Origin: Bdellovibrionaceae bacterium UBA3535
Lineage (GTDB): Bacteria > Bdellovibrionota > Bdellovibrionia > Bdellovibrionales > UBA840
DNA length: 64,000 bases
Assembly (NCBI GenBank): GCA_002376845.1
Contig: DFOS01000026.1
Span: forward strand, 66,327 to 130,326
Reading direction: 5' to 3'
The first letter of the stretch is position 1; the number at the start of each line of letters is the position of its first letter. Below are positions 21,250 to 63,305 of this stretch, one piece after another. Both the position numbers and the translations under genes were made by a program. The notes under the pieces were generated by a model that worked only from the letters and a program-made list of their open reading frames with translations, had not been told where the DNA came from and did not search any database.

Positions 21250-21274
21250 TACTTTGCCCCCGTGCTATGATTAA

Positions 21275-21319
21275 CTATAGGTATTTTTCTTAGTTTTCTA
21301 TATAGGCAAAATTCCTATA
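21275..21319. promoter_or_regulatory. Candidate operator: three TATAGG/CCTATA half-sites in a divergent promoter region
   Basis: CTATAGG at 21275-21281. An inverted repeat TATAGG-caaaatt-CCTATA at 21301-21319. It lies between the PKS operon start (21249) and the LuxR gene (21345). Confidence 0.3.
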
Positions 21320-21344
21320 GCGAGTATTATCAATTAGTTACGGG

Positions 21345-50508: not shown

Positions 50509-51728
50509 TTATTCAATTCTTGCCTGCGCGGTCTAGAACCAGCAAAATAGAGAACTGAGGGAACTTCCAGGTTTATAAATTCTCCCACAAAATCTACTTC
50601 TTCATTTAGGTCAGGATCAATTACAAACAAGCGTATTCGATGCGTATCTTTATTAAAGTTACCTTTCGCAACGGCAGCACGTTCGCCTCCAGGATCATCC
50701 ACAAGCTCCGGAATCTCTACACCCCATTCCAATTGATATACAATTTTTCCCAAACGATTGTACCAGTAATAAACCTCAAGACTTCCTAAATGATATTCAT
50801 AATCTCGGTTATCCCAACGCACGGACAAATTACCATATTTTACACCATTGCGATTATTGATAATCAGCCGCATGTCCATGGGACTACGAATGGTCTCCTG
50901 CAAGACAAAGGTCTCCTCAGGATTGAGAAGATAGGTTTGCAAGAACGCTAGGGCTTCTCCTTGCATATCACTATTGTTTAGAATTTTTAAATTTTGATGT
51001 AGATATAAGGATCTTAAAAACTGCGTTTCTTCATCTTCTGGCATACGCTGTTTGAACATAACACCAGCAGACATTAAGCCGCTTTGCATTCGGTTGGTCC
51101 AAACCGCTCCCGAGGAATACAATAAATATTGTGGCATATAAAATTCACTAGTGCGCCACTCTCGAATGAGCCATATCTCCTCATCTTGATTTGAATAAAT
51201 CAAAATCGATGGGTACTTGCACTTGCCAATTTTGTTTTTCTGATAGCCTTTTTTAAAAGAAAAGACCTTACGCTCTGGATAGCTTATCATTAGTTTGTTT
51301 GAGGCAAATGCAACTTGCTGCTCAAAGGCATGCATATTGTAAAAGTAGGTAATTCTAGATTCATGGTTAGGCTTTACCAGTTCCAAGGGCTGGTGCTCTT
51401 CAATATAAGCTCGCCAATCTGGAATATTGGAATCTTTCGGATAGTATTCACACTCGCTCGTGGGATCAAACATATCTTCTTTTTTTTGATCCGCAATAAG
51501 TTCCAAGCGACGAGTCGACTTCGTATCCACCAATTCCTCATGACTTTGAAAATCTTGACTCTTTAAAGAGGAATTGGGTTTAGACATATCACTTTCTTTT
51601 GCAGCCTTGTCCTGGCTAGATATTTCTTTCTGCCGCTCCTTATAGGACTCTTCTTGCCCAGGTCTGTATTCTGGCCCTTGCCTAGAACATGCCATACACA
51701 ATAATATTATGCTAAGACGCTTGATCAT
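50505..51728 (-). CDS. Lipoprotein of unknown function (third gene of envelope operon)
   Basis: 407 aa, lipobox 'LLCMACS'. The start overlaps the end of the 904-aa gene by 17 nt. Confidence 0.6.
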   Translation of the reverse strand: MIKRLSIILLCMACSRQGPEYRPGQEESYKERQKEISSQDKAAKESDMSKPNSSLKSQDFQSHEELVDTKSTRRLELIADQKKEDMFDPTSECEYYPKDSNIPDWRAYIEEHQPLELVKPNHESRITYFYNMHAFEQQVAFASNKLMISYPERKVFSFKKGYQKNKIGKCKYPSILIYSNQDEEIWLIREWRTSEFYMPQYLLYSSGAVWTNRMQSGLMSAGVMFKQRMPEDEETQFLRSLYLHQNLKILNNSDMQGEALAFLQTYLLNPEETFVLQETIRSPMDMRLIINNRNGVKYGNLSVRWDNRDYEYHLGSLEVYYWYNRLGKIVYQLEWGVEIPELVDDPGGERAAVAKGNFNKDTHRIRLFVIDPDLNEEVDFVGEFINLEVPSVLYFAGSRPRRQELNN

Positions 51729-54426
51729 TGATAAACCTCTCTAAGAAAGCCTCATAGGCTTGGATTCGCTCTTGCAATTGCTGATCAGATTTTAATGTCC
51801 ACCAAGGAAATCGGCTTTGCGAGTTTCCACATTCATAAAAACCCTCTGAATCTTTGCAAATACTTTTTCTTAAGTTTTTTAAAGCCATTAATATTTCGCT
51901 GGCCTCGTAATAGGTAAAATTTTTGTTTTTAATTTTATACAAGCCTGTATCCTTATCCACTAAGTGATTATTGGCTGCATAGTATAAATCAAAGGATAAC
52001 CACAAAAATATTCTCGCATCCCACATCTTGTAAATTTCTCTTGTCACTTGCATCCATTTCATTTGGCCTAACAAAGAAACTTCCCCCGTTTCTGAAAGAG
52101 AGGAATCAATATTATGACTGGCCTCTACCAGCCCTTCTTCATTCACCATATTGTTTGCAAAATACAATCCTAGTCCGTACAAAAACTTCTTCAAAATGGG
52201 AATTGTCTCCACAAGCGTTTGCCTGTCCCTAGGCTCGCCATCGATCAATACAGAAAGCAATCCAGATTTTGCGTACTGCAAACGGTCGGTTTCCGCGATA
52301 AACTCTTGCATAGCTATGCCAAAATCTGCCAGCTCTTCACTTGTCACAATAGATATCAAACCATTTTTTTTGCGTGAATAAGGAACCACGGCTCGAGCCC
52401 CATCTGAGGCCTCAATGATATCATCATTATGAATTTGTGCACGATCCATATTTTTATCAATAAACAATAGACCATTTTTTGTTAGATTTTCTAAGACAAT
52501 GATGGCAGAGCCTAAAGACAAATCAAACAATGGCACTTTAGGAAAAACATGAAAGTCCATGAACGCATAAGAGGTAAAGCGCCGATCATAAGAATTAACA
52601 TTGTAGTCAGCAAAGAATGATAACTGCTTCGTTGCGGCCCTTAACAAAGAAGCCATTCCACCAACGGATTGCATATAAGACTTACTAGGATAAGCCTTAT
52701 AGCCTTGTTCAATTTTTATATTGTCCGGGATAGCAAAAACACCCGATTCTTGCCGGTAAGTATAAATATCCATATAAGGGGTCTCTGTAGGGGTAAAGGG
52801 CCGATGAAGGTTGGGGTAAAGTTGCCCCTCCATATTACGATAGCCAAAAGCCGCAACCAAACGATTGATAAAAGAAAAAGCCATATAATTGTACTGCTTC
52901 TGTTGCGGCTTGTTGTATTTATCTACATTCTCCAACCAGAGAATATTGCTAATAATACCCTGGCCGATTTCTTTACCGCCAGTATGAAACTCATATAGAT
53001 CACTTTTGGCATCAATGGGCCAAGTCATTTGCTTGGATTCAAAGCCGGACAAATGGGAGTGACCATGCATGAAATCTTCTTGAATCTTTTCTGCAGCCAA
53101 TTCATAGACTTCCTGTTTAAAATTTGTATACAGATTGTCATTAAAAGAGCGAAAGCCTCCCAATGCCAAATTACCTATAAGATCTGGAAGCTTTAAATAA
53201 AAAGTCTCCAACTGTTCTGTGATGGCTTGATCCGCTATTTGCGTAATGTTCTTTTCCCAATCCTTGGTGGTTTTCGGTTTTATAAAGTAAAAAGCACCAT
53301 CTGAGAGCCACCTAAGAGTAGACCCACTCCAAGACTCTGGGTTTTCATTTCCAAGAGTTCTTACTAGATTGTATCTCTTCACCGCAGCCCGCAAATAACT
53401 ATGGTATTCTTCCGGAATATTTTCGACAAATTGTGGAAAATAAAACTCAAATGTGGCCTTATGCTTCCAATCAGCTGCAAGTAAGCCTTGCTCGGCATTG
53501 AACTTATTAAAAATATAAGAAAAAGCATTTGCCAAAAACAAACGGTAGTTTTTCGCTGTAGGTTCATTTTTATAGGAAATCAAATCCTTCGGAATATCCA
53601 ATACATTCGTTAATTCTTGTTTTTGAACTTCATCGATAAAATTTAAATCCATAAGAATCGCTATCATTCGCTCAAGTCTTCGAACAAGCTCTTCCACTGC
53701 CATATTCTCTTGATCAAAATCAACTAAGTCGAGCACTTCATCAAAAGAGGCTTGTTTTTCTTGTAGCAAGACTTCAAAGGTCTCTACGACCGTATCCGAA
53801 ATCCCATAATCGCGCATATTGCCCGGCAGTTCATTCACTTGTTTCAACATTGCTAAGACCGCTTGCTTAGCATTGCTAAACTCATGTCTTGTGGGTTTTA
53901 CTGAGGATAAATACTGCTGCATTCCACTTAATGCTGATAGCTCCGTGCTTTGACTTGCAAGCCGATTCAAAACCTCATATTTTTCTAGATCGTTATGCTT
54001 AAGGTTCCATTTGTAGAAAAACTCTTCCATTAGTTTTTCTTGTTTCCTACCATTTTCCATAAAAGCATTCATTACATCAGCACTAAAGAGAGCTATTGCA
54101 GCTTTCACATAAGCAGCATTCTGAATTTCTACCTGTGTAACGGAATCTGACTTAGTATAAAAATCATAGAGCATTTTAGTTGTTTTTTCATTTTCTGGAT
54201 ACAAGACCAAAAGATTTTCAATGGTTTTTAGAAACTCAAAAGTATCGATATACTTGAAGTCATTTAATTGTGGAGATTCTAGGTTCGGTGACTTAATCTC
54301 GCTATAATACTTGTCGTTATTAACCGGACCAAAGATTTCTTTTTTTGAGCTCTTTGAATAAGGTTCCGGCTCCTTCGAGCAGGACACTAAGACGAAAATG
54401 CAAGAAAGAAAAACTATACGCATCAT
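51712..54426 (-). CDS. Large lipoprotein of unknown function (904 aa)
   Basis: Lipobox 'VLVSCSK'. The ATG overlaps the stop of the upstream barrel gene by 1 nt (TAATG). No family motif recognised. Confidence 0.6.
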   Translation of the reverse strand: MMRIVFLSCIFVLVSCSKEPEPYSKSSKKEIFGPVNNDKYYSEIKSPNLESPQLNDFKYIDTFEFLKTIENLLVLYPENEKTTKMLYDFYTKSDSVTQVEIQNAAYVKAAIALFSADVMNAFMENGRKQEKLMEEFFYKWNLKHNDLEKYEVLNRLASQSTELSALSGMQQYLSSVKPTRHEFSNAKQAVLAMLKQVNELPGNMRDYGISDTVVETFEVLLQEKQASFDEVLDLVDFDQENMAVEELVRRLERMIAILMDLNFIDEVQKQELTNVLDIPKDLISYKNEPTAKNYRLFLANAFSYIFNKFNAEQGLLAADWKHKATFEFYFPQFVENIPEEYHSYLRAAVKRYNLVRTLGNENPESWSGSTLRWLSDGAFYFIKPKTTKDWEKNITQIADQAITEQLETFYLKLPDLIGNLALGGFRSFNDNLYTNFKQEVYELAAEKIQEDFMHGHSHLSGFESKQMTWPIDAKSDLYEFHTGGKEIGQGIISNILWLENVDKYNKPQQKQYNYMAFSFINRLVAAFGYRNMEGQLYPNLHRPFTPTETPYMDIYTYRQESGVFAIPDNIKIEQGYKAYPSKSYMQSVGGMASLLRAATKQLSFFADYNVNSYDRRFTSYAFMDFHVFPKVPLFDLSLGSAIIVLENLTKNGLLFIDKNMDRAQIHNDDIIEASDGARAVVPYSRKKNGLISIVTSEELADFGIAMQEFIAETDRLQYAKSGLLSVLIDGEPRDRQTLVETIPILKKFLYGLGLYFANNMVNEEGLVEASHNIDSSLSETGEVSLLGQMKWMQVTREIYKMWDARIFLWLSFDLYYAANNHLVDKDTGLYKIKNKNFTYYEASEILMALKNLRKSICKDSEGFYECGNSQSRFPWWTLKSDQQLQERIQAYEAFLERFINDQAS

Positions 54427-55649
54427 TAGAAAAACACCATCATTGTCAATTCATGGGATTTTTGTTTGTCCACATTTCGGCCTGAAATTATATCACTATA
54501 GCGATATGTGATCCCATAAGGAAAAGCCGCGGCTTTATTTAAAAAAGCCTCAACGCTAGAATACGAAAGACCCAGTTCTATCTTGTGAAATAATGTATCC
54601 GAATTTTCTGACAGCAAGGCGTAATCATATCCTCTATCGCCATTGTAGTAATCAGCAGCTTTGTATTCACCAATATATGCTGCGGCTGTTGACCAAGAAG
54701 AGGTCCACTTAGTTCTATAGCTAGTTTCCCATCGGAAGGCATCGCCTCGGTCTCGCTCCACCCGCTCTTTGCGCTCTTCTGCAGGAAGATAATCACCCGA
54801 GTAACTGGGAACACGTTTATTAATATCATCAGCAATGTTCCACTGATAGGTCAGCGCAGTGCCAATGGTATTTCGCGCATCCAAGTGAAAATCCTGAACC
54901 TGTGTGAATTCAATATAACGGCGGTGAAAAATAGGAATGTCTATGAGAGAGTCCGGATCATCTTCTGGTCCTGTTGGCAAATTGAATAAAACTTTATTTA
55001 ACAGGGTCCATTTTGGCGAATCATAATAGCGGTACTTACTGATAACTTGCAAATCTCCTATCTGCCAGGATTCATCTGCTTGCAAGGGTTTGTAATTACG
55101 ATCCTGCAGAAAATCCTTAAAACTTTGTACCAAATCAATATCTAGGAGCTTCTCAAATTCCTTCCGGTCCGCTTCTTCAAGTATGCCGCTGCCCATAGAC
55201 TGATAAATTTCTTTTGCATTATTATAGCCGCCGCTTCGAACCACTATATCTGCTTTTAACTGGGTTATTGGCGCACCAACACCAAGGGTCCATTTATCCG
55301 AGATACCATAAGCAAAAATAGGAGCTGAATAATTGACATAGGCATCACCACTGAAGCGCAGCTCACCAAGCTGTAATTTCTGGCCCATTGCGTACTTTTG
55401 TACCAAGGAGTTGTTCAAGCCATTGATCAGCTCGGGGGCACGCGGGTGAACTTTCAGTATTTCGGTAGCATCGAAATTTCTAGAAAGTCGAGAGTCCAAA
55501 CTATAAAGCGCGTTATCATCACCAAATTTATTGGTGATGCCGCCAACACGTCCCTGCTTCCACATAAACGAGCGCACACCCTTGGGCAGGACCTGTGTAT
55601 CTTCAATGGCAAAACTAAATAAGCTAATAAACAGCAGAATAACTAACAT
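54426..55649 (-). CDS. Putative outer-membrane beta-barrel protein of unknown family
   Basis: 407 aa. Hydrophobic N-terminus 'MLVILLFISLFSFA', alternating-polarity beta-strand-like segments rich in Y/G/S/T, and a C-terminal '...HELTMMVFF' (aromatic terminal residue). Confidence 0.5.
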   Translation of the reverse strand: MLVILLFISLFSFAIEDTQVLPKGVRSFMWKQGRVGGITNKFGDDNALYSLDSRLSRNFDATEILKVHPRAPELINGLNNSLVQKYAMGQKLQLGELRFSGDAYVNYSAPIFAYGISDKWTLGVGAPITQLKADIVVRSGGYNNAKEIYQSMGSGILEEADRKEFEKLLDIDLVQSFKDFLQDRNYKPLQADESWQIGDLQVISKYRYYDSPKWTLLNKVLFNLPTGPEDDPDSLIDIPIFHRRYIEFTQVQDFHLDARNTIGTALTYQWNIADDINKRVPSYSGDYLPAEERKERVERDRGDAFRWETSYRTKWTSSWSTAAAYIGEYKAADYYNGDRGYDYALLSENSDTLFHKIELGLSYSSVEAFLNKAAAFPYGITYRYSDIISGRNVDKQKSHELTMMVFF

Positions 55650-56032
55650 AACGAACCCTAGGGGTGAGGCATCTCTAAAAAAACTGAAAAAATATTATAA
55701 GTCAGACTGCCACCCTATTCGAAAACACTTCCCAAACAGACTGCCCAGTAGGCGCTAAGAAGGCAATGTTGATGCTAGCGAAGAGTAAAAATTGTAGCGT
55801 CTTCTAGCGCACTTTTTCTAATGAGATTTTCCATAAAGATTTCAATGCCTTACAAGCCCTTCCTAATGATGAAAAACTACGATTTTGTGTATTTTTTGCC
55901 TAATTCCACTAGGATTAGCAAAATATGAGTTTTTTTTACATTTTTCCCGACCAAAGCAGGGCTCAGCATTTGCCCAATGGCATGCCAGAAGGGCAAAATA
56001 TCATTAAGAAAAACAAGCATCTAGGAGTTCGC

Positions 56033-56863
56033 GTGTTGAAAGTTATAAGTATTATTCTTTGTATTCTATTCCTTCAATCCGAGGCATGGGCCGGCAAGAT
56101 TTTACGCAAAAAAGGTCGCACCGTGATTGTGGATGTTCGAGGTAAAAGCGTGCAGCAAGGTGATAAACTTTCTGTTTTCTTCCGCGGAAAAAAGCGTGGT
56201 GTTCTGCGCGTAAGTAAAATCAATCGCAGCGGCAGCAAGGCCATGGCAAAAGTTATCATGGGCAAAGCTAATAAGGGCTGGATGGCAGAGTTAGAAAACG
56301 AAATGATGTATGAACCGCAACAAGCAGCTAGTAAAAAAAGAGATGCTGGTAAAAAAATGCATTGGGGGGCCATGTTTGGAATATCCCAAGATAGCGCCAG
56401 CGTCAGTACCCTTGAAGAGGATCTTAGCGGAAGCGGCTTAAGCCTTTTAGGCACTTTGGATTATGGCTTTACCAGTAGCATACAATTGCGTGCTAAAGCC
56501 GGTTTAAAACAGTTTAAAACCGAAGGCACCACCAGTACCTCCAATTGTTCGGGAGAATCTAACTGCGTTCTGGATATTAATTATTTAAATTTTGAGGGAA
56601 TGGGACAGTACTACTTGAACGATTCACGTTACGCATTTTGGTTAGGTGCAGGAGCTGTTATTTCCCACCCCATCTCGGATGATACAAATGTCGTTGACAG
56701 TGACACCATCGAAACCACAAGCGGTTTTCAATTGGGCGGCGGAGTTGATATTGGCATGCAAAAGGGTGCTTATATTCCTGTAGAAATCTCGTATGTAATG
56801 ATGAATACCTCAGATGATGTAGAGCCCAGTTATTTAAGTATTACTTTTGGCTATATGTTTTAA
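56033..56863 (+). CDS. Outer-membrane beta-barrel protein (OmpA-like/porin-family barrel) with basic N-terminal domain
   Basis: A GTG at 56033 (AGGAG 5 nt upstream) gives the signal peptide '(M)LKVISIILCILFLQSEAWA'. The C-terminal '...YLSITFGYMF' is a typical barrel terminus. The track ORF start at 55925 is probably too long. Confidence 0.55.
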   Translation: MLKVISIILCILFLQSEAWAGKILRKKGRTVIVDVRGKSVQQGDKLSVFFRGKKRGVLRVSKINRSGSKAMAKVIMGKANKGWMAELENEMMYEPQQAASKKRDAGKKMHWGAMFGISQDSASVSTLEEDLSGSGLSLLGTLDYGFTSSIQLRAKAGLKQFKTEGTTSTSNCSGESNCVLDINYLNFEGMGQYYLNDSRYAFWLGAGAVISHPISDDTNVVDSDTIETTSGFQLGGGVDIGMQKGAYIPVEISYVMMNTSDDVEPSYLSITFGYMF

Positions 56864-58698
56864 CCCATTACCAATTGTGAGATCAGTTGGCGAATAGAAT
56901 TGAGCATACGTCGTTTATGCTCGGTAAACTGGATACCATATTTTTTACCACCATCGGACCAAACCACTTTACCCTTCACTTCTACTTCGCCACTACCATC
57001 AGGTTTTTGAATGCACATAGTTACAACAGAGCCACTATTGATTAGCTCATCCACATCAATGCCGGCTCCGCCAAGTGATAAAGACTCCATGGCACCAACC
57101 AATTCCTTATTACCAACTTTCACTTTCATATTGGATTGCACTTCAAATCGCTCGTATTGGCGTCTATAAGTATCTTGTCTAAGAACAAATAAAATCACTA
57201 ACGGCAATAAAAGTAGACCTAGCAAAACCATACTACCAAAGCCCTTACCATTACTTCCGCCTTTGCCCAACTTTGATACCATTCCACAACCGCCTGCGGA
57301 TGTTTCAGCTGAGGCTGGACCACGATCAAACGCCGAATAATTGACCGAGTAACTTGGTTGCGACGAGGCAACACTGACCCCCTGAGAGGTTAAGACAGCA
57401 CCATTGGCATTCAAACGTTTGCCAGAAATTGTATAGTTACTTAAAGAAGAAATATTATTGGAAGCATCAGTAATCACTTCTTTTAACTGAAAGGAATTCA
57501 TCGAAGGCTGCTCTCTTAAAATCATGGCGGCAACCCCAGATACAAAAGGAGCTGCCATGGAAGTGCCACTCATATAAGTATAGAAATTACCCGGATAAGT
57601 GGAATAAATAGCGGAGCCTGGTGCCGCCATATGCACCGTGCTCGAACCATAATTTGAAAAATATGAGATCTGGTCATTGGATTGGGTCGAGGCCACACTT
57701 ATCACATTAGGCGCATCATAGTTTGCAGGAAACATGGGGTAAACATCATTATTGGAAGCCGCGTTTCCTGCAGCGGCTACCACAGGTATACTACGGTTGT
57801 AGGCATACGCAATGGCATCATGAAGTGATCTTGAGTAGGAACCGCCACCCCAAGAATTATTTAAAACCGATGCGCCATTGTTGATGGCATAATAGATTCC
57901 CTTAATCGCATCAGAAGTGGTACCATTGCCATCTGCACCTAAAAATTTAACTGCCATGATTCTTACGCGCGATTCATAACCATCAGCACAATCTCCTCCA
58001 CTCGGAGCCACCTCAGGTGACGCAAGAATGTCTTGAGTAGCACCTAACGCAATTCCTGCCACATGGGTTCCATGTCCATCATCATCATAGGGAGCACCAT
58101 CATTGTTGTAAAAATCATAACCATGAATATCGTCAACATATCCATTGCCATCGTCATCAACTCCAGCGCTACCATTTTTCTCTAAAGTATTCTCCCACAT
58201 CGCACACCAGCGAGTAAATGCCGTATGGGTATAATCGACACCCGTATCAATCACTGCAATAATAGGTCTTACCGAAGTATCGCTTAAGTTGTCCCATGCC
58301 TCATCGGCTTGTATGGGAGCAGAGGTCTGCGAGAAGCTGCCATCAATTGTGGAGCTCGCAAGGGATGAAAACTCCAGCTCTGTAAGCAACTCCCCTCGCA
58401 CACCCACTTGCTCGGTTTTACTAACTATATAATTGGGTTCTACATATTCTACGCTAGGGTCATTGGCCATTTCTGCAATCATCTCATCCACAGACTGCCC
58501 CGCTGCGGCTTTGTAATGGTGCATTTTCATGGAAGTCCATGCCCCCTTCATTCTTACCTTGGCTTTCGAAGACAGGCGCTTGTTAAAACTCGACATGGTG
58601 GTCTTTGAGGTTTGGTTCTTAAACTTCACAATAACTTCACCTGGCACATAATTTTGCGCCATAAGAAAAGATGAATATAGTATGGTGAGAAAGACCAA
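56860..58698 (-). CDS. Subtilisin-like S8 serine protease with Cys-containing sorting-signal-like segment, TM helix and C-terminal PilZ-like domain
   Basis: Catalytic motifs 'AVIDTGVDYTH', 'HGTHVAGIA' and 'SGTSMAAPFVSG'. These are followed by '...SAGGCGMVSKLGKGGSNGKGFGS', the TM helix 'MVLLGLLLLPLVILFVL', and a 106-aa tail with 'RRQYER' and 'SLSLGGAG'. TTG start with an AAGGGG SD. Confidence 0.8.
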   Translation of the reverse strand: MVFLTILYSSFLMAQNYVPGEVIVKFKNQTSKTTMSSFNKRLSSKAKVRMKGAWTSMKMHHYKAAAGQSVDEMIAEMANDPSVEYVEPNYIVSKTEQVGVRGELLTELEFSSLASSTIDGSFSQTSAPIQADEAWDNLSDTSVRPIIAVIDTGVDYTHTAFTRWCAMWENTLEKNGSAGVDDDGNGYVDDIHGYDFYNNDGAPYDDDGHGTHVAGIALGATQDILASPEVAPSGGDCADGYESRVRIMAVKFLGADGNGTTSDAIKGIYYAINNGASVLNNSWGGGSYSRSLHDAIAYAYNRSIPVVAAAGNAASNNDVYPMFPANYDAPNVISVASTQSNDQISYFSNYGSSTVHMAAPGSAIYSTYPGNFYTYMSGTSMAAPFVSGVAAMILREQPSMNSFQLKEVITDASNNISSLSNYTISGKRLNANGAVLTSQGVSVASSQPSYSVNYSAFDRGPASAETSAGGCGMVSKLGKGGSNGKGFGSMVLLGLLLLPLVILFVLRQDTYRRQYERFEVQSNMKVKVGNKELVGAMESLSLGGAGIDVDELINSGSVVTMCIQKPDGSGEVEVKGKVVWSDGGKKYGIQFTEHKRRMLNSIRQLISQLVMG

Positions 58699-58724
58699 AA
58701 AATACCCCTTGCTTGACCTAAGTC

Positions 58725-58752
58725 TTATCGGCTTTGGTCCAGGGAACTTGAG
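58725..58752 (-). promoter_or_regulatory. Sigma-28 (FliA)-type promoter
   Basis: The minus strand reads CTCAAGTT-N11-GCCGATAA (perfect -10), about 26 nt upstream of the TTG start at 58698. Confidence 0.55.
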
Positions 58753-58898
58753 ATATTTTTTCCTGCCTAATCTTATTAGATTTCTTCTGACAAGTTTTTT
58801 CGAATGATTATGATACGTTTTGGGGGTGTATCAATTTGAGAAAAGATTATGATTTTTCTTTGCTTTACTCTCTGTAAAAGGCTCGAAAAAATAGATCT

Positions 58899-59489
58899 AT
58901 GCTTTGGTGGATACTCGCTTATTTTACTTATTCCTATTTTTTGCATAGCCACCTGGAGTCCTATTGGGCCTATTCCTCCTACCTTATTGATATTCTATTT
59001 GTTATTGGCTTTGCTTTAATTTTCCATATACGGCCGCATTTCCGTATAGCCTACTCCTGGCAACATCTTCTTGCCATTGCACTTGGTGCACTACTTTGTT
59101 TTGTCATATTTTTTACACCGAGCATTCAATCACCAATGATTATGGACCAGTGGCAAAGTATATTGCTGCTTTGCTTATTTGGCCCCCTACTTGAAGAACT
59201 TCTATACCGCTTTATGTTGATGGAATCCTTATTACGTTTGCAGTTTTCTAAAAAAATAGTGGTACTTGTATCTGCCCTAGCCTTTGCGGCAAGCCACCTC
59301 AAAGCTTACGGCCTTGTTAGTCCGAATTATGAGACTTTTATATTATTCCAAGGAGCCTATACCTTTATGCTAGGTCTTTGGTGGGCCAATGAATATTGTA
59401 AAACGCGCAACCTCTATCACGTTACAATTCTGCATATACTATTTAACTTTGGCTATTGGCTAACTACTTACTATGGTTTCGGCGTTTAA
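58899..59489 (+). CDS. CPBP family (Rce1/CAAX-protease-type) intramembrane glutamic endopeptidase
   Basis: 196 aa, polytopic. Motifs 'LLEELLYR' (EExxxR), 'FAASH' (FxxxH) and 'HILFN' (HxxxN). Confidence 0.8.
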   Translation: MLWWILAYFTYSYFLHSHLESYWAYSSYLIDILFVIGFALIFHIRPHFRIAYSWQHLLAIALGALLCFVIFFTPSIQSPMIMDQWQSILLLCLFGPLLEELLYRFMLMESLLRLQFSKKIVVLVSALAFAASHLKAYGLVSPNYETFILFQGAYTFMLGLWWANEYCKTRNLYHVTILHILFNFGYWLTTYYGFGV

Positions 59490-60293
59490 TTTTTTTAACA
59501 AATCACGATTGTTATGCTTCAAAGCACCTTGCTCCAAAATATAATATTTATGGGCATAGACCTGCTTCAACTTGGCCTTTTCTGCCAAACTAAGATGTTT
59601 CGAGTTCATAAATGGTTTCATGGCCTTTAAGCGCCAAAAGTCCATGGCGTAATACTTTCTTGAAAGTTGATCATCATGACCGCCATACTTTTTAATACAA
59701 GGAGCATCGATAAAACCTACCGAGTGCTTTTCTAAAATACGCAGCCACATTTCGTAATCTTCACAGACCGGAAAATCCTCTCGAAACAAACCAATTTCAT
59801 CAAAAATATCTTTGTGGATCAAAATGCTGGATGGGCTCATCAAACAAAGCTCTAGACTTTGCATAAATATACGCCCCCCCATTTTTTTGTGCTTTTTATG
59901 GGGATTCACTCTTACCCCATTACGTATCCATATCTCTTCGGTATGCAAAACTCGGCAATCTGGATGGGCAATCAAATACTCATCTTGTTTGTCTAGTTTT
60001 CCTTTTAACCACTCATCATCCGAGTCCAAAAAAGCAATCCACTGACTACGAGCACAACGTATCCCCGTATTTCTGGCTGCCGATACTCCTTGATTTTCTG
60101 TACGAAAGTATACAATCCTAGGATCTTTGCTTCTTTTGCGCTCCACCAAATCTCCGGTACCATCGGTAGAGCCATCGTCAATGATGATCAATTCTAAATC
60201 ATGAAAACTTTGTTGCAAAACTGAATCGATGGCTCGTTCTATGGTGTGGGCACGATTGTAAGTGGGGATAATTACCGAAACAAAATCAAGCAT
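59460..60293 (-). CDS. Family 2 glycosyltransferase
   Basis: 'VSVIIPTYNRAHTIERAIDSVLQQSFHDLELIIIDDGSTDGT' and 'FLDSDDEW'. The ATG at 60293 overlaps the upstream gene by 8 nt. Confidence 0.85.
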   Translation of the reverse strand: MLDFVSVIIPTYNRAHTIERAIDSVLQQSFHDLELIIIDDGSTDGTGDLVERKRSKDPRIVYFRTENQGVSAARNTGIRCARSQWIAFLDSDDEWLKGKLDKQDEYLIAHPDCRVLHTEEIWIRNGVRVNPHKKHKKMGGRIFMQSLELCLMSPSSILIHKDIFDEIGLFREDFPVCEDYEMWLRILEKHSVGFIDAPCIKKYGGHDDQLSRKYYAMDFWRLKAMKPFMNSKHLSLAEKAKLKQVYAHKYYILEQGALKHNNRDLLKKLNAETIVSS

Positions 60294-61242
60294 GAACAAT
60301 TGCCTCCGAGTAACCTTGCTCTCGCCACCTTTTTTCAATTTCCGCTAAAGTCTCTTTTGTCACATTTTTGTTGATGGACTTTACCACACCCTCCAACTGC
60401 TCGATATTTCGAGCTCCAACTAGGGGCAAGTCGATAAAATCGTATTTGTTACGAGAAAAATGCAAAGCAAAATCGAGGAGATTTAAATCATAGTCGAACA
60501 AAATACTTTTTAGTTTTTTGACTAATTCAAATTTGGGGTAGTGATTTTGGTTTTTCCACCAAGGCGCCCAAGAGCGGCAATCCTCATCATCAAATTGCCT
60601 CGTTTCATCTACTCGGCCTGTTAAAATGCCTTTGTCCAGTGTAGCATAACCCATTTTCCAAATCTTACGTTCCCCTAAAAACTCGTATCGCTTGGCGGTT
60701 TCAAAATAGGAGAAGGCATTCCAAGAATCTTGAATGGCTTCTATCGAGCATACCTCTTCTGCCCTTTGAAAGTCTTCGGCAAACGTATTGCAAAGACCGA
60801 TATGCCGTATGTCGCCTTTTTCTTTTCTTCTGGCTAAGACCTCCATAGCACTACGAATATCATTTCTAGGGTCCGGCCAATGAATCATATACAAGTCAAT
60901 GGAGTCGCCAGCTAGATCTTGCAAGGATTGATCTAGCATTTTTTCGACCACATCGGGAGCATTGCATTTATCTACGCGCCGGTTTCGATCCCATGTCACC
61001 CCTGCTTTTGAGACAATGAAAGCATCACCGCGAACTTCCTTCAAAGCTTTTGCCAAACGCTTCTCTGAGAGACCAAAACCGTATATTGGTGCGGTATCAA
61101 ATACGCGAAAGCCCAGCTCGAAAGCCTTTTGCACCAAGCGGATCGCATCCTGCTCAGAAATCTTTCCAAATCCATAGCCTCGCCCCTCTCCACTTATGGA
61201 GGCTGCGCCAAAGCCTAAAGGAAAATCCGGAAAATCTTGCAT
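60286..61242 (-). CDS. Aldo/keto reductase
   Basis: 318 aa. 'FDTAPIYGFGLSEKRL', 'IDLYMIHWPD', 'IRHIGLCN'. Confidence 0.85.
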   Translation of the reverse strand: MQDFPDFPLGFGAASISGEGRGYGFGKISEQDAIRLVQKAFELGFRVFDTAPIYGFGLSEKRLAKALKEVRGDAFIVSKAGVTWDRNRRVDKCNAPDVVEKMLDQSLQDLAGDSIDLYMIHWPDPRNDIRSAMEVLARRKEKGDIRHIGLCNTFAEDFQRAEEVCSIEAIQDSWNAFSYFETAKRYEFLGERKIWKMGYATLDKGILTGRVDETRQFDDEDCRSWAPWWKNQNHYPKFELVKKLKSILFDYDLNLLDFALHFSRNKYDFIDLPLVGARNIEQLEGVVKSINKNVTKETLAEIEKRWREQGYSEAIVHA

Positions 61243-61312
61243 ATTTAGGAATTAGCACAAAAAAAATCAGGAAACACTGCATTTTCCGACAAAAATGGCA
61301 TATAGAGGAGGC

Positions 61313-62311
61313 ATGAAAGCTCTAATTTTTGCGCACCGTATGGAAGCCATTGCTTTTTTGGATCATTTGCAACCACGAAGCTGCGAAAAGAACATCTATC
61401 GAAGTGATGATCTTTTCATCACCTACAGTGGTGAGGGGCTGTTTTCAGCCCTCTATCATATACAAAACCTATTGCTGCAATATCCAGAAATTGAAGAGGT
61501 TTGGAACTACGGCCTTGCCGCCTCTTTGAATGGGCAGCAAGAGCTGCATACTATTCAAAGCATCGGCAATATCTACCGCCAAAAAGATCAAGAAAATATG
61601 GATTTTCAAAGCTTTGCTCTCAGTGGAGAAATGGATTTGGTAACAAGTATTGACCGTGTTAATGACGCAAAAACCAAGACCTACCTCTCGCGCTTTGCCA
61701 GCTTGGTGGACCGAGAAGCCTGGGCCTATGCCTACGCATGCCAGAGAACTCATAAAACGTTTCGGGCTTTTAAATTGGTATCCGACTTTGCAGAAGATCT
61801 TGAATGTAGCCAAATTCGCTCGCGTGCAGAGGCGCTTTCATTGATGATGTGGGAAGACTATTTACAGCGTCATTCCAATCCTAGTTTGCCGGCCAAAACT
61901 ATCTCACTGCCAAAAGGATTTTATTTTACCGCAAGCCTTGCGCACCGCTATCGTGAATTAAATAAAAAATTACAAAAAAAACGAGGTTGCAACAGCGAAG
62001 AGCTATTATGCAGTTTAGAAACTAAGAAAATCTTAGAGCTAAAAATATTACCCAAGGAAAAAACAAAAATCTTGTTAGAAAAAATGGAAGAAGCTCTTGA
62101 TCCCGATTTTTTTACATTCAAAAAAAAGCTGCAAGCTAACCTTACCCCATGGAAAGAACAAGAAATTTACTTTGATTTCGGCCCTTATCTAGAGCCCAAC
62201 GAGGGGCAATTACAGATGCGCTTTCAGAACGACAAAGACTTCTTAACAAAGCTACAACGCTTACAAAACATGAAACCTTCTAGCATTTTTCCGGACCCCA
62301 ATGAAAGTTAA
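61313..62311 (+). CDS. Protein with N-terminal PNP_UDP_1 (MTA/SAH-nucleosidase-like) domain and uncharacterised C-terminal half
   Basis: 'MKALIFAHRMEAIAF' and 'LVDREAWAYAYACQRTHKTFRAFKLVSDFAED' match the phosphorylase/nucleosidase family pattern (vdMEgaa...iR.iSD). The start is either 61295 or 61313. Confidence 0.5.
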   Translation: MKALIFAHRMEAIAFLDHLQPRSCEKNIYRSDDLFITYSGEGLFSALYHIQNLLLQYPEIEEVWNYGLAASLNGQQELHTIQSIGNIYRQKDQENMDFQSFALSGEMDLVTSIDRVNDAKTKTYLSRFASLVDREAWAYAYACQRTHKTFRAFKLVSDFAEDLECSQIRSRAEALSLMMWEDYLQRHSNPSLPAKTISLPKGFYFTASLAHRYRELNKKLQKKRGCNSEELLCSLETKKILELKILPKEKTKILLEKMEEALDPDFFTFKKKLQANLTPWKEQEIYFDFGPYLEPNEGQLQMRFQNDKDFLTKLQRLQNMKPSSIFPDPNES

Positions 62312-63305
62312 TAAAATTTTTGTCGAAGAAAATTTGCAGGGACATGAAAGTGTTTCTAGGTTTTGTGAGTCCTTCCCCAAGGCGGAACTACATATTATCG
62401 ACCAATATGAAAACTACTTTCAAAAAGTAAAAAAACCTTATCTGCAAAAACACAATAACAATTCCATATTTTTAGCAGAAAAACGCGGGAACTTGGTGAA
62501 GGCAGCCCCGGACGCCTATGGACTTAGTGGTGAGCCTCACTATTATTATATTCATGCCTATAATTGTATGTATGAATGCCAGTACTGTTACCTTCAAGGC
62601 TACTTTCAGTCGCCCGACTTGGTATTTTTTCTCAATCATGAAGACATTGTTGAATCGATTCGCAGAACTTACAGCGAGCATCCCGAAGGTCGTATGTGGT
62701 TTCACGCCGGAGAGTTCTCTGATTCTTTGGCACTCTCGCACCTAAGCAAGGAACTGCCAATATACTTTCGTGCTTTTCAAGAGTTACCGCGCGCTTACCT
62801 AGAATTAAGAACCAAGTCTGCTAACACAAAGGAACTAGAGAAACTCGATCCGCTAGAAAACATTATCGTAAGTTTTTCTTTCTCCTCGCATACTGCCGCC
62901 AAAAAATACGACTTAAAAACAGCAAGCATTTCGGCTCGTATCCAAGCCATGTACCGTCTTTATACGAAAGGTTACCGATTGGCATTGCACTTGGACCCTA
63001 TTATAGATTCTCCCAACCTTTTTTCTGACTACCAACAGGCTCTAAAAGAACTTTTTGAGAAAATACCAGCGAATTACTTTTCTTACATCTCCCTAGGAGT
63101 TGTGCGTTTTACCAAAGATGTTTTCGAACAAACAGCTCGCAACTACCCTGAAAGCGATATGTTGGCGGCAAACTTTGTAAAATCCTTTGATAACAAAGTT
63201 CGCTACTCCAAACCCCTAAGAGATAAGATACTGTATAATATGCGCGACATGATTCTTCGCATGGGAATCACGAAAGAAAAAATCTACCTCTGTATGGAAG
63301 ATTAG
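62301..63305 (+). CDS. Radical SAM protein, spore-photoproduct-lyase (SplB)-like family
   Basis: CxxxCxxC cluster motif in 'YNCMYECQYCYLQGYF', in the same C-M-x-x-C-x-Y-C-Y-L-Q context I recall for SP lyases. 334 aa. 11-nt overlap with the upstream gene. Confidence 0.65.
   Translation: MKVNKIFVEENLQGHESVSRFCESFPKAELHIIDQYENYFQKVKKPYLQKHNNNSIFLAEKRGNLVKAAPDAYGLSGEPHYYYIHAYNCMYECQYCYLQGYFQSPDLVFFLNHEDIVESIRRTYSEHPEGRMWFHAGEFSDSLALSHLSKELPIYFRAFQELPRAYLELRTKSANTKELEKLDPLENIIVSFSFSSHTAAKKYDLKTASISARIQAMYRLYTKGYRLALHLDPIIDSPNLFSDYQQALKELFEKIPANYFSYISLGVVRFTKDVFEQTARNYPESDMLAANFVKSFDNKVRYSKPLRDKILYNMRDMILRMGITKEKIYLCMED

What the first reader, a model, noticed from the sequence alone, without database searches (positions are those of the whole stretch)
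56860..59489. S8 protease with a MYXO-CTERM-like Cys signal that is not terminal but followed by a PilZ-like tail, paired with a divergent CPBP intramembrane protease
The 612-aa protein has a complete subtilase triad (DTG / HGTH / SGTSMA). After the protease domain comes a tripartite segment. It consists of a Gly/Ser-rich stretch with a single Cys ('SAGGCGMVSKLGKGGSNGKGFGS'), a hydrophobic helix ('MVLLGLLLLPLVILFVL') and a basic cluster ('RQDTYRR'). This is the architecture of Cys-containing C-terminal sorting signals such as MYXO-CTERM, which normally end the protein. Here 106 further residues follow. They have PilZ hallmarks: 'RRQYER' (RxxxR), 'SLSLGG' (a degenerate D/NxSxxG with Ser in place of Asp/Asn) and a beta-rich 'VKGKVVWSDGGKKYGIQF'. 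By the positive-inside rule this tail would be cytoplasmic. The gene 200 bp away on the other strand encodes a CPBP glutamic endopeptidase with EExxxR, FxxxH and HxxxN motifs. As I recall, that enzyme class has been proposed in silico as the sortase ('myxosortase') for such Cys signals. The protease gene also sits behind a near-consensus sigma-28 promoter. The working hypothesis is an extracytoplasmic protease whose anchoring, processing or release is coupled to c-di-GMP sensing on the cytoplasmic side. I do not know of a described example of this architecture.
Basis: partly seen in the sequence, partly recalled or inferred. Interest (0 to 1): 0.8.

Follow-up and report, generated by a model that had tools for sequence, protein, structure and literature searches.

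The report
Membrane-tethered protease fused to c-di-GMP sensor
A predatory-bacterium (Bdellovibrio-group) gene encodes an exported subtilisin-type protease joined through one membrane helix to a cytoplasmic c-di-GMP-binding (PilZ) domain; this layout is conserved across a whole uncharacterised family, but the neighbouring membrane-protease gene is a chance neighbour rather than its partner.

Summary
ORF 56860-58698(-) encodes a 612-aa protein with a short signal peptide, a fervidolysin-type propeptide and an S8 domain with an intact triad. A conserved linker follows, carrying a lone invariant Cys (GCG[LM]V), then a Gly-rich spacer, one TM helix with an invariant Pro, a basic cluster and a canonical PilZ domain (Pfam 63 bits; Foldseek TM 0.73-0.80 to BcsA, Alg44 and MapZ PilZ).

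It is not a one-off. All 120 best database relatives, those with names being Bdellovibrionota, share the architecture, the single Cys and the TM Pro. A FliA/sigma-28-type promoter is present, and 8 of 9 orthologous upstream regions carry a similar site, so this looks like an attack-phase gene.

The proposed pairing with the CPBP protease fails. No CPBP gene is adjacent in any of 13 other genomic contexts, and the window's CPBP scores far below the one myxosortase-family model it hits (MrtJ). The Cys-TM-basic segment resembles Cys-type sorting signals. Related S8 proteases in Oligoflexia, Thermodesulfovibrionales and Synergistota end in true ones. Here, though, it matches no curated model, is not terminal, and its Cys lies 15-29 residues from the helix.

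The Subt-PilZ combination was listed in a 2008 survey, and I found no functional study. Most likely this is an inner-membrane-tethered protease under cytoplasmic c-di-GMP control, with the coupling mechanism unknown.

The parts
56860..58698 (-). Complete S8-TM-PilZ gene (612 aa, TTG start)
   Evidence: ORF list. All 120 best homologs share the PF00082 + PF07238 architecture. The public annotation starts at Met57 (556 aa, P0001), which cuts off the signal peptide and part of the propeptide.
58725..58751 (-). FliA/sigma-28-type promoter TCAAGTTC-N11-GCCGATAA (that is, TCAAG-N15-CCGATA)
   Evidence: 14 of 16 matches, and the only hit at that score on either strand of the window. In 8 of 9 orthologous upstream regions the best-scoring site has a -10 element with a CCGAT core. 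It fits the B. bacteriovorus attack-phase consensus TTAAG-N16-CCGATA (PMC3627812).
58705..58710 (-). Shine-Dalgarno AAGGGG, 6 nt upstream of the TTG start
   Evidence: Read directly from the sequence.
58657..58698 (-). Short N-terminal signal peptide (MVFLTILYSSFLMA|QNY), with no basic n-region
   Evidence: It aligns with the clearer signal peptides of relatives, all ending just before the conserved Q-x-YVPGE. The cleavage site is inferred, not predicted with a dedicated tool.
58432..58656 (-). Fervidolysin-type N-terminal propeptide (residues 15-89)
   Evidence: Pfam PF22148, 43.6 bits. AF2 gives a beta-alpha-beta fold with pLDDT of about 70-90.
57460..58266 (-). Subtilase (S8) catalytic domain, residues 145-413; D151, H212, S380 and oxyanion N312
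   Evidence: Pfam 173 bits. The catalytic residues are invariant. The best Foldseek match is deseasin MCP-01, 3VV3, at 41% identity.
57277..57360 (-). Conserved juxtamembrane linker QPxY...R..AS...[GA][GA]CG[LM]V (residues 447-474); the lone invariant Cys471 is at 57286-57288
   Evidence: P448, R459, C471 and G472 are invariant in 30 sequences. All 120 homologs have exactly one Cys here. In 91 of 117 full-length members it is the only Cys in the exported part. AF2 predicts disorder (pLDDT < 50 for 456-487). Translation verified.
57235..57276 (-). Gly-rich spacer of variable length (residues 475-488)
   Evidence: The Cys-to-TM distance is 15-29 residues (median 24) across 120 homologs. Translation verified.
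57178..57234 (-). Single transmembrane helix (residues 489-507) with invariant Pro499
   Evidence: AF2 helix at 489-507. A Pro is present in the TM helix of all 120 homologs, and P499 is invariant in the alignment. The Pro aligns with the TM Pro of true Cys-type terminal signals on related S8 proteases.
56878..57165 (-). Cytoplasmic PilZ domain (residues 512-607): R513xxxR517, S539-L-S541-L-G543-G544, six strands plus a C-terminal helix
   Evidence: Pfam PF07238, 63-68 bits. The tail-only AF2 model has pLDDT 83. Its top 45 Foldseek PDB hits are all PilZ domains: 4I86 at TM 0.75-0.78, 4RT0 (Alg44 with c-di-GMP) at 0.73, 5XLY (MapZ) at 0.80. The RxxxR motif starts a median of 9 residues after the TM helix.
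58899..59489 (+). Divergently transcribed CPBP/Rce1-like intramembrane protease. It is adjacent here, but the link is not conserved and it is probably unrelated
   Evidence: PF02517, 60 bits, with EExxxR, FxxxH and HxxxN motifs. MrtJ scores 25 bits against a cut-off of 75. No CPBP gene is adjacent in 13 other contexts.
55925..56863 (+). Convergent OMP beta-barrel gene whose 3' end overlaps the protease gene by 4 bp. It is a recurring neighbour, and a functional link is unproven
   Evidence: PF13505, 37.6 bits. Orthologs sit in the same position in L086 and L089 (38-40% identity). Other small OMP-like genes occupy this slot in L082, L083 and L090.

Best explanation
This is one member of a conserved Bdellovibrionota family of type-I (N-out, C-in) inner-membrane proteins.

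A Sec-exported pro-subtilase with an intact catalytic site is held on the periplasmic face by a flexible linker and one TM helix. Directly behind the helix sits a cytoplasmic PilZ c-di-GMP receptor. The gene is transcribed from a FliA (sigma-28)-type promoter, which in Bdellovibrio marks the attack-phase regulon.

The most likely function is inside-out signalling, in which cytoplasmic c-di-GMP sets what the extracytoplasmic protease does. The proposed path is as follows. c-di-GMP wraps the RxxxR loop, which begins only 6-14 residues after the helix. This repositions or oligomerises the Pro-kinked helix. That in turn changes the tethering, processing or release of the protease at the conserved juxtamembrane element: the lone invariant Cys and the invariant TM Pro.

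Shown here: the domain composition, the fold, the conservation of the motifs, the topology logic, the promoter motif and its conservation.

Inferred: c-di-GMP binding, the direction of signalling, and what happens at the Cys/Pro element. The possibilities for that element are lipidation or cleavage as in Cys-type sorting signals, or disulfide-linked dimerisation.

The adjacent CPBP gene is not part of the system.
For: Architecture and fold.

Family-wide conservation of the architecture (120 of 120 hits with PF00082 + PF07238) and of C471, G472, P499, R513, R517, S541, G543 and G544.

The Cys is a lone thiol in 91 of 117 full-length members, so it cannot form a conserved intramolecular disulfide.

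The RxxxR motif lies a median of 9 residues from the TM end.

The tail module is found only on this S8 family. The short database hits that I inspected are N-truncated fragments of the same family.

Ser at the D/N position of the second PilZ motif is compatible with c-di-GMP binding, as in PA2989: bioRxiv 10.1101/814665.

The best structural matches are PilZ domains of membrane-embedded proteins, BcsA and Alg44.

The sigma-28-type promoter is unique at its score in the window, recurs upstream of orthologs, and matches the published Bdellovibrio attack-phase consensus.

Related S8 proteases in other lineages carry true terminal Cys / TM(Pro) / Arg signals at the equivalent place, which shows that this kind of C-terminal element is used on this protease lineage.
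Against: [quoted passage not shown]

A single TM helix is a poor conduit for conformational signals, so the coupling may instead work through localisation or partner binding.

The signal peptide of this particular protein is short and lacks a basic n-region.

Nothing shows that the protein is processed at the Cys or the TM helix. The Cys is 15-29 residues from the helix, so a cleavage next to the Cys would lie well outside the membrane, which is hard to square with an intramembrane active site.

I could not identify the HD100 ortholog's locus tag or find expression or phenotype data for it.
Confidence: 0.6

Rival explanations
1. The Cys-TM-basic segment is a MYXO-CTERM-type sorting signal, the adjacent CPBP protease is its dedicated myxosortase, and PilZ makes the cleavage depend on c-di-GMP.
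For: The segment has the tripartite layout with an invariant Cys, and a conserved Pro in the helix as in Synerg-CTERM. CPBP enzymes do process such signals (bioRxiv 10.1101/2023.06.07.544157; PMC11980579). The window's CPBP has intact catalytic motifs, and MrtJ appears among its three NCBIfam hits, at 25 bits.
Against: No CPBP gene is adjacent in any of 13 other genomic contexts, including the nearest relatives at 56-57% identity. One context has a CPBP gene about 4 kb away, and it is not detectably similar to the window's. The CPBP scores far below the MrtJ cut-off (25 against 75), and MrtJ is the only myxosortase-family model among its hits at E <= 1. Segments cut just after the basic cluster hit no Cys-CTERM model at E <= 10, while a Synergistota control scores 37.5 bits. 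The Cys is 15-29 residues from the helix, against about 6-14 in true signals.
Confidence: 0.08
2. The segment is a sorting signal processed by some other enzyme encoded elsewhere in the genome: an unlinked CPBP, a rhomboid or a site-2 protease. The Cys is lipidated and the protease is released from the TM-PilZ stub to the outer membrane or cell surface. c-di-GMP gates that step.
For: The lone invariant Cys and the invariant helix-breaking Pro are typical marks of a processed or lipidated signal. MrtX is likewise never encoded next to its substrates. S8 relatives in Oligoflexia (L010), Thermodesulfovibrionales (L018) and Synergistota (L033) end in true signals of this type.
Against: The module occurs only on this one protein family, not on diverse cargo. 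In the limited sample of loci I scanned, the only proteins ending in such signals were S8 relatives from other lineages (L010, L018, L033), and no other kind of protein carried one. The long, variable Gly-rich spacer separates the Cys from the membrane. There is no direct evidence of cleavage.
Confidence: 0.22
3. The helix is a static anchor and PilZ acts as an adaptor. The protease stays permanently tethered to the inner membrane, as mycosins are. PilZ mediates c-di-GMP-dependent localisation, for example to the invasive pole, or binding to a partner. The lone Cys forms an intermolecular disulfide that makes a covalent dimer.
For: S8 proteases with a C-terminal TM anchor are well known, and T7SS mycosin is the top NCBIfam hit, though below its cut-off. 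PilZ domains often work as protein-interaction adaptors through their C-terminal helix. An unpaired periplasmic Cys can form an intermolecular disulfide.
Against: A simple anchor does not explain an invariant Pro in the helix or the conserved QPxY...R..AS...GCG[LM]V linker. No conserved partner gene was found.
Confidence: 0.25
4. Outside-in regulated intramembrane proteolysis. The protease domain is shed, by itself or by another enzyme, at the conserved linker. The Pro-containing helix is then cut, which releases the PilZ domain into the cytoplasm as a soluble effector.
For: The layout has a conserved juxtamembrane site plus a helix-destabilising Pro, as in known intramembrane-protease substrates (established knowledge of RseA and rhomboid substrates).
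Against: This is speculation only. Stand-alone PilZ proteins are already plentiful in Bdellovibrio, with 15 to more than 18 reported. There is no evidence of cleavage.
Confidence: 0.07
5. The PilZ domain is degenerate and does not sense c-di-GMP. It is only a folded cytoplasmic plug or interaction domain.
For: Thr or Ser occupies the canonical D/N position in 115 of the 120 homologs, and Asp or Asn in none. Some PilZ-fold proteins do not bind c-di-GMP (the eponymous PilZ proteins 3DSG and 3CNR are among the weak sequence hits).
Against: Both RxxxR arginines, the Ser and both Gly residues are invariant, which is hard to explain without ligand binding. PA2989, with Ser at this position, binds c-di-GMP. 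The best fold matches are c-di-GMP-bound PilZ domains.
Confidence: 0.2

Closest known systems
Subt-PilZ architecture of B. bacteriovorus HD100 NP_969350.1 (Tripathi & Sowdhamini 2008, PMC2605481)
   Same: It has the same two-domain combination and comes from the same phylum, so it is presumably the HD100 ortholog of this family.
   Different: It appears only as a table entry labelled 'Signalling'. The survey says nothing about the TM helix, the Cys motif, the topology, the promoter or the function. I could not resolve its locus tag or find any experimental work on it.
Alg44 (P. aeruginosa alginate co-polymerase) and the BcsA cellulose synthase PilZ
   Same: These are membrane-embedded proteins in which a cytoplasmic PilZ next to a TM helix transmits c-di-GMP status to an extracytoplasmic or membrane process. 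They are the best structural matches to the tail (4RT0 at TM 0.73; 4I86 at 0.75-0.78).
   Different: Their output is polysaccharide synthesis or export, not a protease. In Alg44 the PilZ is N-terminal, so the orientation is inverted, and BcsA is polytopic. In this family the D/N residue is replaced by Ser or Thr.
LapD/LapG (Pseudomonas) inside-out c-di-GMP control of a periplasmic protease
   Same: The logic is the same as proposed here: cytoplasmic c-di-GMP decides what a periplasmic protease does (established knowledge, not tested here).
   Different: LapD senses c-di-GMP through a degenerate EAL domain and sequesters a separate cysteine protease through a HAMP-coupled periplasmic domain. 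Here the receptor and a serine protease are one polypeptide with a single helix.
[quoted passage not shown]
   Same: They share the tripartite order: a Gly-rich motif with an invariant Cys, then a TM helix, then a basic cluster. A conserved Pro in a Leu-rich helix is also seen in Synerg-CTERM. Related S8 proteases carry true signals of this type.
   Different: The segment is not terminal, because a domain of about 105 residues follows it. It matches no curated model. The Cys is 15-29 residues from the helix rather than next to it. It is confined to one protein family. No CPBP gene is conserved nearby.
Mycosins (MycP, type VII secretion S8 proteases)
   Same: They are exported subtilases held at the membrane by a single C-terminal TM helix. 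Mycosin is the top NCBIfam hit over the catalytic domain (121 bits).
   Different: The score is far below the equivalog cut-off of 278.75. The organism is not an actinobacterium and there is no ESX context. Mycosins have no cytoplasmic sensor domain.
VesB / GlyGly-CTERM / rhombosortase (Vibrio cholerae)
   Same: A serine protease cargo carries a tripartite C-terminal signal, and an intramembrane protease cleaves it to control surface retention (abstracts).
   Different: The protease class is different (S1), as are the signal (GlyGly, with no Cys) and the processing enzyme (rhomboid). There is no cytoplasmic domain after the basic cluster.

Membership tests
Peptidase S8 (subtilase) | Match to the family HMM above the curated threshold | tested here: met
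   PF00082, 173 bits against a cut-off of 21.8.
Peptidase S8 (subtilase) | Asp-His-Ser triad in D-T/S-G, H-G-T-H and G-T-S-M-A contexts, plus the oxyanion Asn | tested here: met
   D151, H212, S380 and N312 are invariant in 30 relatives.
Peptidase S8 (subtilase) | Subtilisin alpha/beta fold | tested here: met
   In the AF2 model the catalytic core is mostly above pLDDT 90. Foldseek matches 3VV3 (E 3e-29, 41% identity) and hundreds of other subtilases.
PilZ domain (PF07238) | Match to the family HMM above the curated threshold | tested here: met
   63.1 bits in the full protein and 68.2 bits for the tail alone, against a cut-off of 22.5.
PilZ domain (PF07238) | Six-stranded beta-barrel plus a C-terminal helix (canonical PilZ fold) | tested here: met
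   DSSP gives six strands and one helix. The top 45 Foldseek PDB hits are all PilZ domains, with TM scores up to 0.80.
PilZ domain (PF07238) | RxxxR c-di-GMP-binding motif | tested here: met
   R513 and R517 are invariant. The usual form is RRxxxR[FY].
PilZ domain (PF07238) | [D/N]hSxxG c-di-GMP-binding motif | tested here: not met
   The h, S and G positions are conserved, but the first position is Thr in 62 homologs, Ser in 53, Lys or Arg in 3, and never Asp or Asn; in 2 the motif was not found. A Ser variant, PA2989, is reported to bind c-di-GMP, so a working variant is plausible.
PilZ domain (PF07238) | Binds c-di-GMP | not testable with these tools
   This needs ITC, DRaCALA or MST on the purified tail.
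Cys-type C-terminal sorting signals (MYXO-, JDVT-, Synerg-, CGP-CTERM) | Tripartite order: signature motif with an invariant Cys, then a TM helix, then a basic cluster | tested here: met
Cys-type C-terminal sorting signals (MYXO-, JDVT-, Synerg-, CGP-CTERM) | Located at the extreme C-terminus of the protein | tested here: not met
   105-122 residues (the PilZ domain) follow the helix in all 120 homologs.
Cys-type C-terminal sorting signals (MYXO-, JDVT-, Synerg-, CGP-CTERM) | Match to a curated model (TIGR03901, NF033191, TIGR04564, TIGR04288) | tested here: not met
   Truncated segments give no hit at E <= 10. The positive control L033 scores 37.5 bits on TIGR04564. One caveat is that the plausible signal of L018 is also missed, so these models are specific to particular lineages.
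Cys-type C-terminal sorting signals (MYXO-, JDVT-, Synerg-, CGP-CTERM) | Shared by unrelated cargo proteins, or in a dedicated pair with an adjacent CPBP sorting enzyme | tested here: not met
   The module is seen only on this S8 family. No CPBP gene is adjacent in 13 other contexts.
Cys-type C-terminal sorting signals (MYXO-, JDVT-, Synerg-, CGP-CTERM) | Cys-dependent cleavage and lipidation in vivo | not testable with these tools
   This needs tagged-protein blots and mass spectrometry.
Myxosortase-type CPBP (MrtX, MrtC, MrtP, MrtJ, MrtS, MrtA), asked of ORF 58899-59489 | CPBP/Rce1-like fold with EExxxR, FxxxH and HxxxN motifs | tested here: met
   PF02517, 60 bits. The motifs were read in the translation.
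Myxosortase-type CPBP (MrtX, MrtC, MrtP, MrtJ, MrtS, MrtA), asked of ORF 58899-59489 | Match to a curated myxosortase model above its cut-off | tested here: not met
   MrtJ (NF033192) scores 25.2 bits against a cut-off of 75. It is the only myxosortase-family model among the three NCBIfam hits listed at E <= 1.
Myxosortase-type CPBP (MrtX, MrtC, MrtP, MrtJ, MrtS, MrtA), asked of ORF 58899-59489 | Conserved co-occurrence or adjacency with its substrate | tested here: not met
   No CPBP gene is adjacent in 13 other contexts. tblastn with the window's CPBP hits only the identical contig L001. Genome-wide co-occurrence was not testable.
FliA (sigma-28) attack-phase regulon of Bdellovibrio | A TTAAG-N16-CCGATA-like -35/-10 pair upstream of the gene | tested here: met
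   TCAAG-N15-CCGATA lies 27-53 nt upstream of the start codon. In 8 of 9 orthologous upstream regions the best-scoring site has a CCGAT -10 core.
FliA (sigma-28) attack-phase regulon of Bdellovibrio | A mapped transcription start site and attack-phase-specific, FliA-dependent expression | not testable with these tools
   This needs 5'-end RNA-seq or a fliA mutant.

The most novel reading that the evidence does not exclude
This would be a c-di-GMP-gated sorting signal. In this lineage the short Arg-rich cytoplasmic end of a Cys-type C-terminal sorting signal has been extended into a PilZ receptor. The level of the second messenger would then decide whether an attack-phase subtilase stays tethered to the predator's inner membrane, or is processed at the lone Cys and the Pro-containing helix and handed on, lipid-anchored or free, to the cell surface or the prey. 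It would be the first sorting signal with a built-in ligand switch, and a direct, single-polypeptide route from c-di-GMP to extracytoplasmic proteolysis.
Probability: 0.2. Interest if true: 0.85.

Novelty: new variant of a known kind. Interest (0 to 1): 0.55.

Why it matters
c-di-GMP controls the switch between predation and growth in Bdellovibrio, and the DgcB cyclase governs prey invasion. Most of the 15 to more than 18 PilZ receptors in this organism have no known output. A receptor fused through the membrane to an active protease would give a direct effector arm for that signalling, during the phase in which the predator attacks prey.

More generally, it would be a minimal, single-helix example of inside-out second-messenger control of extracytoplasmic proteolysis. 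If the Cys/Pro element is processed, it would also be a ligand-gated version of a protein-sorting signal.

The family is large, conserved and easy to test, because the invariant Cys, Pro and Arg residues point to obvious mutants.

The negative result is also useful. The tempting pairing with a putative sortase next door is a coincidence of local gene order.

Tried and rejected
1. The genome-contig scan seeded with the full-length alignment picked generic S8 motifs. It did supply S8 relatives with true terminal Cys signals, which served as controls.

I used protein-by-protein context look-ups instead.

3. Sequence searches of the tail against the PDB gave only weak hits (E > 0.01). The fold comparison was decisive instead.

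4. I considered that the short proteins (140-430 aa) matching the tail were new architectures. Rejected: the 13 I inspected begin inside the S8 domain or the linker after it, so they are truncated gene calls.

5. I considered that unannotated genes in the CPBP slot of L090 and L089 were diverged CPBPs. Rejected: both are soluble signal-peptide proteins.

6. I considered a lipobox reading of A-G-G-C. Rejected: no hydrophobic region precedes it, and it lies about 470 residues into the protein.

7. I considered a conserved intramolecular disulfide for Cys471. Rejected: it is the only exported Cys in 91 of 117 full-length members.

8. I tried to identify the HD100 locus tag and find published data on it. 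Bd2692/BspE is excluded, because it has no extra domain. For Bd2269, Bd2321 and Bd2428 I found no domain information. Rotem et al. 2016, the c-di-GMP pull-down study, is not in the library.

9. The PilZ review (bioRxiv 10.1101/814665) does not mention proteases, transmembrane fusions or Bdellovibrio.

Full report
**1. What is in the sequence**

The minus-strand ORF 56860-58698 encodes 612 residues. It starts at a TTG that lies 6 nt downstream of an AAGGGG ribosome-binding site.

Pfam finds three domains:
- a fervidolysin-type N-terminal propeptide at residues 15-89;
- Peptidase_S8 at 145-413 (173 bits);
- PilZ at 512-607 (63 bits in context and 68 bits for the tail alone, against a cut-off of 22.5).

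The neighbour at 58899-59489(+) is a 196-aa CPBP/Rce1-like protein (PF02517, 60 bits) with EELLYR, FAASH and HILFN motifs.

The public gene call for the identical protein (P0001, 556 aa) starts at Met57, which removes the signal peptide and part of the propeptide. Homologs align over the whole 612-aa form, so the longer form is the correct one.

**2. It is a conserved family, not a chance fusion**

All 120 best database relatives (42-60% identity) carry PF00082 plus PF07238. Where they are named, they come from Bdellovibrionales, Bdellovibrionaceae or Pseudobdellovibrionaceae MAGs, or from MAGs labelled only Proteobacteria or Pseudomonadota.

The following are invariant in a 30-sequence alignment:
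- the catalytic residues D151, H212 and S380, and the oxyanion residue N312;
- P448 and R459 in the linker;
- C471 and G472;
- P499 inside the TM helix;
- R513 and R517 (RxxxR);
- S541, G543 and G544.

Across all 120 homologs:
- there is exactly one Cys in this region, always in a [GA][GA]CG[LMTIV][VI] context;
- every sequence has a Pro in the helix;
- the Cys-to-helix spacer is Gly-rich and varies from 15 to 29 residues;
- 105-122 residues follow the helix.

In 91 of 117 full-length members this Cys is the only cysteine in the exported part of the protein. It is therefore a conserved lone thiol and not half of an intramolecular disulfide.

A search of 1.84 billion representative proteins with the tail (residues 441-612) found 116 hits at E <= 0.001 and 65 at E <= 1e-10. 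The full-length hits are 600-680 aa with the match at the C-terminus. The 13 shorter hits that I inspected begin inside the S8 domain or the linker after it, so they are truncated gene calls. The module is therefore seen only on this protease family.

**3. Fold and topology**

AlphaFold2 on the 30-sequence alignment gives mean pLDDT 82. The model has a confident subtilase core, a disordered stretch at 456-487 that contains the Cys motif, one helix at 489-507, and then six strands plus a C-terminal helix.

The catalytic domain is closest to deseasin MCP-01 (3VV3, 41% identity).

A separate model of the tail (pLDDT 83) was compared with the PDB. Its top 45 matches are all PilZ domains. They are led by:
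- BcsA (4I86, TM 0.75-0.78);
- Alg44 bound to c-di-GMP (4RT0, TM 0.73);
- MapZ (5XLY, TM 0.80).

The topology follows from an N-terminal signal peptide plus one stop-transfer helix: the S8 domain is outside and the PilZ domain is in the cytoplasm. This is an inference, because I had no dedicated topology predictor. The signal peptide of this particular protein is short and has no basic n-region.

**4. The PilZ motifs**

RxxxR is intact and is usually RRxxxR[FY]. It begins a median of 9 residues after the helix.

The second motif is [ST]-h-S-x-G-G. The canonical Asp or Asn never occurs at its first position: 62 homologs have Thr, 53 have Ser, 3 have Lys or Arg, and in 2 the motif was not found.

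Galperin & Chou define the motif as [D/N]hSxxG. They note that P. aeruginosa PA2989, which has Ser at that position, binds c-di-GMP (bioRxiv 10.1101/814665).

Strictly, then, one defining residue is not met. The invariance of the other ligand-contacting residues still argues for a working variant.

**5. The CPBP neighbour**

CPBP enzymes are now established as the sorting enzymes for MYXO-CTERM, first in silico (bioRxiv 10.1101/2023.06.07.544157) and then experimentally (Guo, Haft & Wall 2025, PMC11980579).

The adjacency is nevertheless not conserved. I examined 13 other genomic contexts of family members, from 34% to 57% identity, including the nearest relatives P0003, P0004 and P0005. None has a CPBP gene next to the protease gene.

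One context, L087, has an Rce1-like gene about 4 kb away, at the far end of a syntenic block (SPL, an unknown gene, an aldo-keto reductase, GT2). That gene is not detectably similar to the window's CPBP.

Genes in the equivalent slot of L090 and L089 are soluble secreted proteins.

The window's CPBP scores 25 bits on the MrtJ model against a cut-off of 75. MrtJ is the only myxosortase-family model among its three NCBIfam hits at E <= 1.

The pairing is best read as an accident of local gene order.

**6. Is the Cys-TM-basic segment a sorting signal?**

It resembles one. It has the tripartite order, an invariant Cys, and a conserved Pro in a Leu-rich helix, which Haft describes for Synerg-CTERM.

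Related S8 proteases fetched do end in true terminal signals of this kind:
- L010, an Oligoflexia MAG from the same phylum: GGGGGCNSKSNPTESSPIALGYLGLPLALGLVLRRRKF;
- L018, from Thermodesulfovibrionales;
- L033, from Synergistota.

L033 scores 37.5 bits on the Synerg-CTERM model, which shows that the test works. Segments from the window and from a second family member, cut just after the basic cluster, hit no Cys-CTERM model at E <= 10.

In an alignment the TM Pro lines up across all of these proteins. The Cys of the true signals, however, falls within the Gly-rich spacer of the S8-PilZ family, 6-14 residues from the helix. The family's own Cys lies 15-29 residues upstream.

The segment works like, or derives from, such a signal at most. 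It is not a member of any described family: it is not terminal, it is not recognised by the models, it is not shared by other cargo, and it has no dedicated enzyme nearby.

**7. Promoter**

TCAAGTTC-N11-GCCGATAA at 58725-58751(-) matches the sigma-28 consensus at 14 of 16 positions. It is the only hit at that score on either strand of the window. In 8 of 9 orthologous upstream regions the best-scoring site has a -10 element with a CCGAT core, 50-130 bp upstream of the start codon.

Karunker et al. mapped 140 attack-phase promoters in B. bacteriovorus. They found TTAAG-N16-CCGATA in 66% of them, and these promoters drive proteases and surface proteins as well as flagellar genes (PMC3627812).

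The gene is therefore probably part of the FliA-driven attack-phase programme. This is an inference from sequence.

**8. Mechanism**

The best-supported picture is an inner-membrane-tethered, extracytoplasmic pro-subtilase whose cytoplasmic PilZ domain reports c-di-GMP. The nearest functional analogies are:
- Alg44 and BcsA, in which a PilZ next to the membrane controls an envelope process;
- LapD/LapG, in which c-di-GMP controls a periplasmic protease from inside the cell.

The RxxxR loop starts only 6-14 residues after the helix in almost all members. Ligand binding could therefore reposition or oligomerise the helix. The lone Cys and the helix Pro mark a conserved element whose role is open:
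- processing or lipidation, as in sorting signals (about 0.2);
- an intermolecular disulfide, with static anchoring (about 0.25);
- regulated intramembrane proteolysis that releases the PilZ domain (below 0.1).

**9. Novelty**

The Subt-PilZ combination was tabulated once, for B. bacteriovorus NP_969350.1, in a 2008 survey of domain architectures (PMC2605481). Databases name family members only as 'S8 family serine peptidase'.

In the searchable literature I found no functional, structural or expression study of the family. I also found no description of the invariant Cys, the TM Pro, the [ST]hSxGG variant or the conserved FliA promoter.

It is a new variant of known kinds (PilZ receptors, membrane-anchored subtilases), not a new category. 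The most exciting reading, a ligand-gated sorting signal, is neither excluded nor demonstrated.

Noticed in passing
window 55925-56863 (+): A 312-aa protein with a signal peptide, a small N-terminal domain and an OMP beta-barrel domain (PF13505) converges on the protease gene, and their 3' ends overlap by 4 bp. Orthologs (38-40% identity) sit in the same position in L086 and L089. Unrelated small OMP-like genes occupy the slot in L082, L083 and L090.
   Followed up: partly
window 58531-58698 (-) / P0001: The public gene call for the identical protein starts at Met57 (556 aa). This removes the signal peptide and part of the propeptide. The TTG start with an AAGGGG Shine-Dalgarno sequence gives the form that aligns with homologs along its full length.
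   Followed up: yes
window residues C165 and C236 of the protease (about 58204-58206 and 57991-57993, minus strand): The window protein and its closer relatives in alignment A1 (P0002, P0003, P0005, P0006, P0008, P0012, P0013, P0014) share an extra Cys pair: one in the R/K/N/D-[WLT]-C-A-[MLI]-W context, and one in an insertion of about 10 residues (PSGGDCADGYES) that the rest of the family lacks. This is probably a clade-specific disulfide, which would fit an oxidising (periplasmic) location.
   Followed up: no
L018:5986-7695 (+): An S8 protease from a Thermodesulfovibrionales MAG ends in ...HGGGGGCSIGTGQNTVTALADLTVMLIPFIFAAVMRRRR. This is a textbook tripartite Cys signal, yet it hits no NCBIfam Cys-CTERM model at E <= 10. 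It may be an undescribed lineage-specific variant of the signal.
   Followed up: partly
L010 (Oligoflexia MAG), S8 ORF ending about 128 residues after the tblastn match: An S8 paralog from the same phylum ends in GGGGGCNSKSNPTESSPIALGYLGLPLALGLVLRRRKF. Terminal Cys-type signals therefore exist in Bdellovibrionota, which is not among the lineages discussed in the passages of the myxosortase papers that I read.
   Followed up: partly
window 59460-63305 and L087, L088, L090: A syntenic block lies upstream of the protease gene in the window's wider clade: an SPL-family radical-SAM protein, an unknown protein of about 335-360 aa, an aldo-keto reductase and a GT2 glycosyltransferase. The CPBP gene occupies different positions relative to this block: inside it in the window, and at its far end in L087.
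   Followed up: partly
window 18001-24000: The G+C content drops to 0.34-0.38, against about 0.42 for the rest of the window. This may be a foreign or otherwise unusual segment.
   Followed up: no
window 51712-55649 (-): Two large adjacent ORFs (904 aa with a lipoprotein-like N-terminus, and 407 aa with a signal peptide) lie just beyond the OMP gene. I did not examine them.
   Followed up: no
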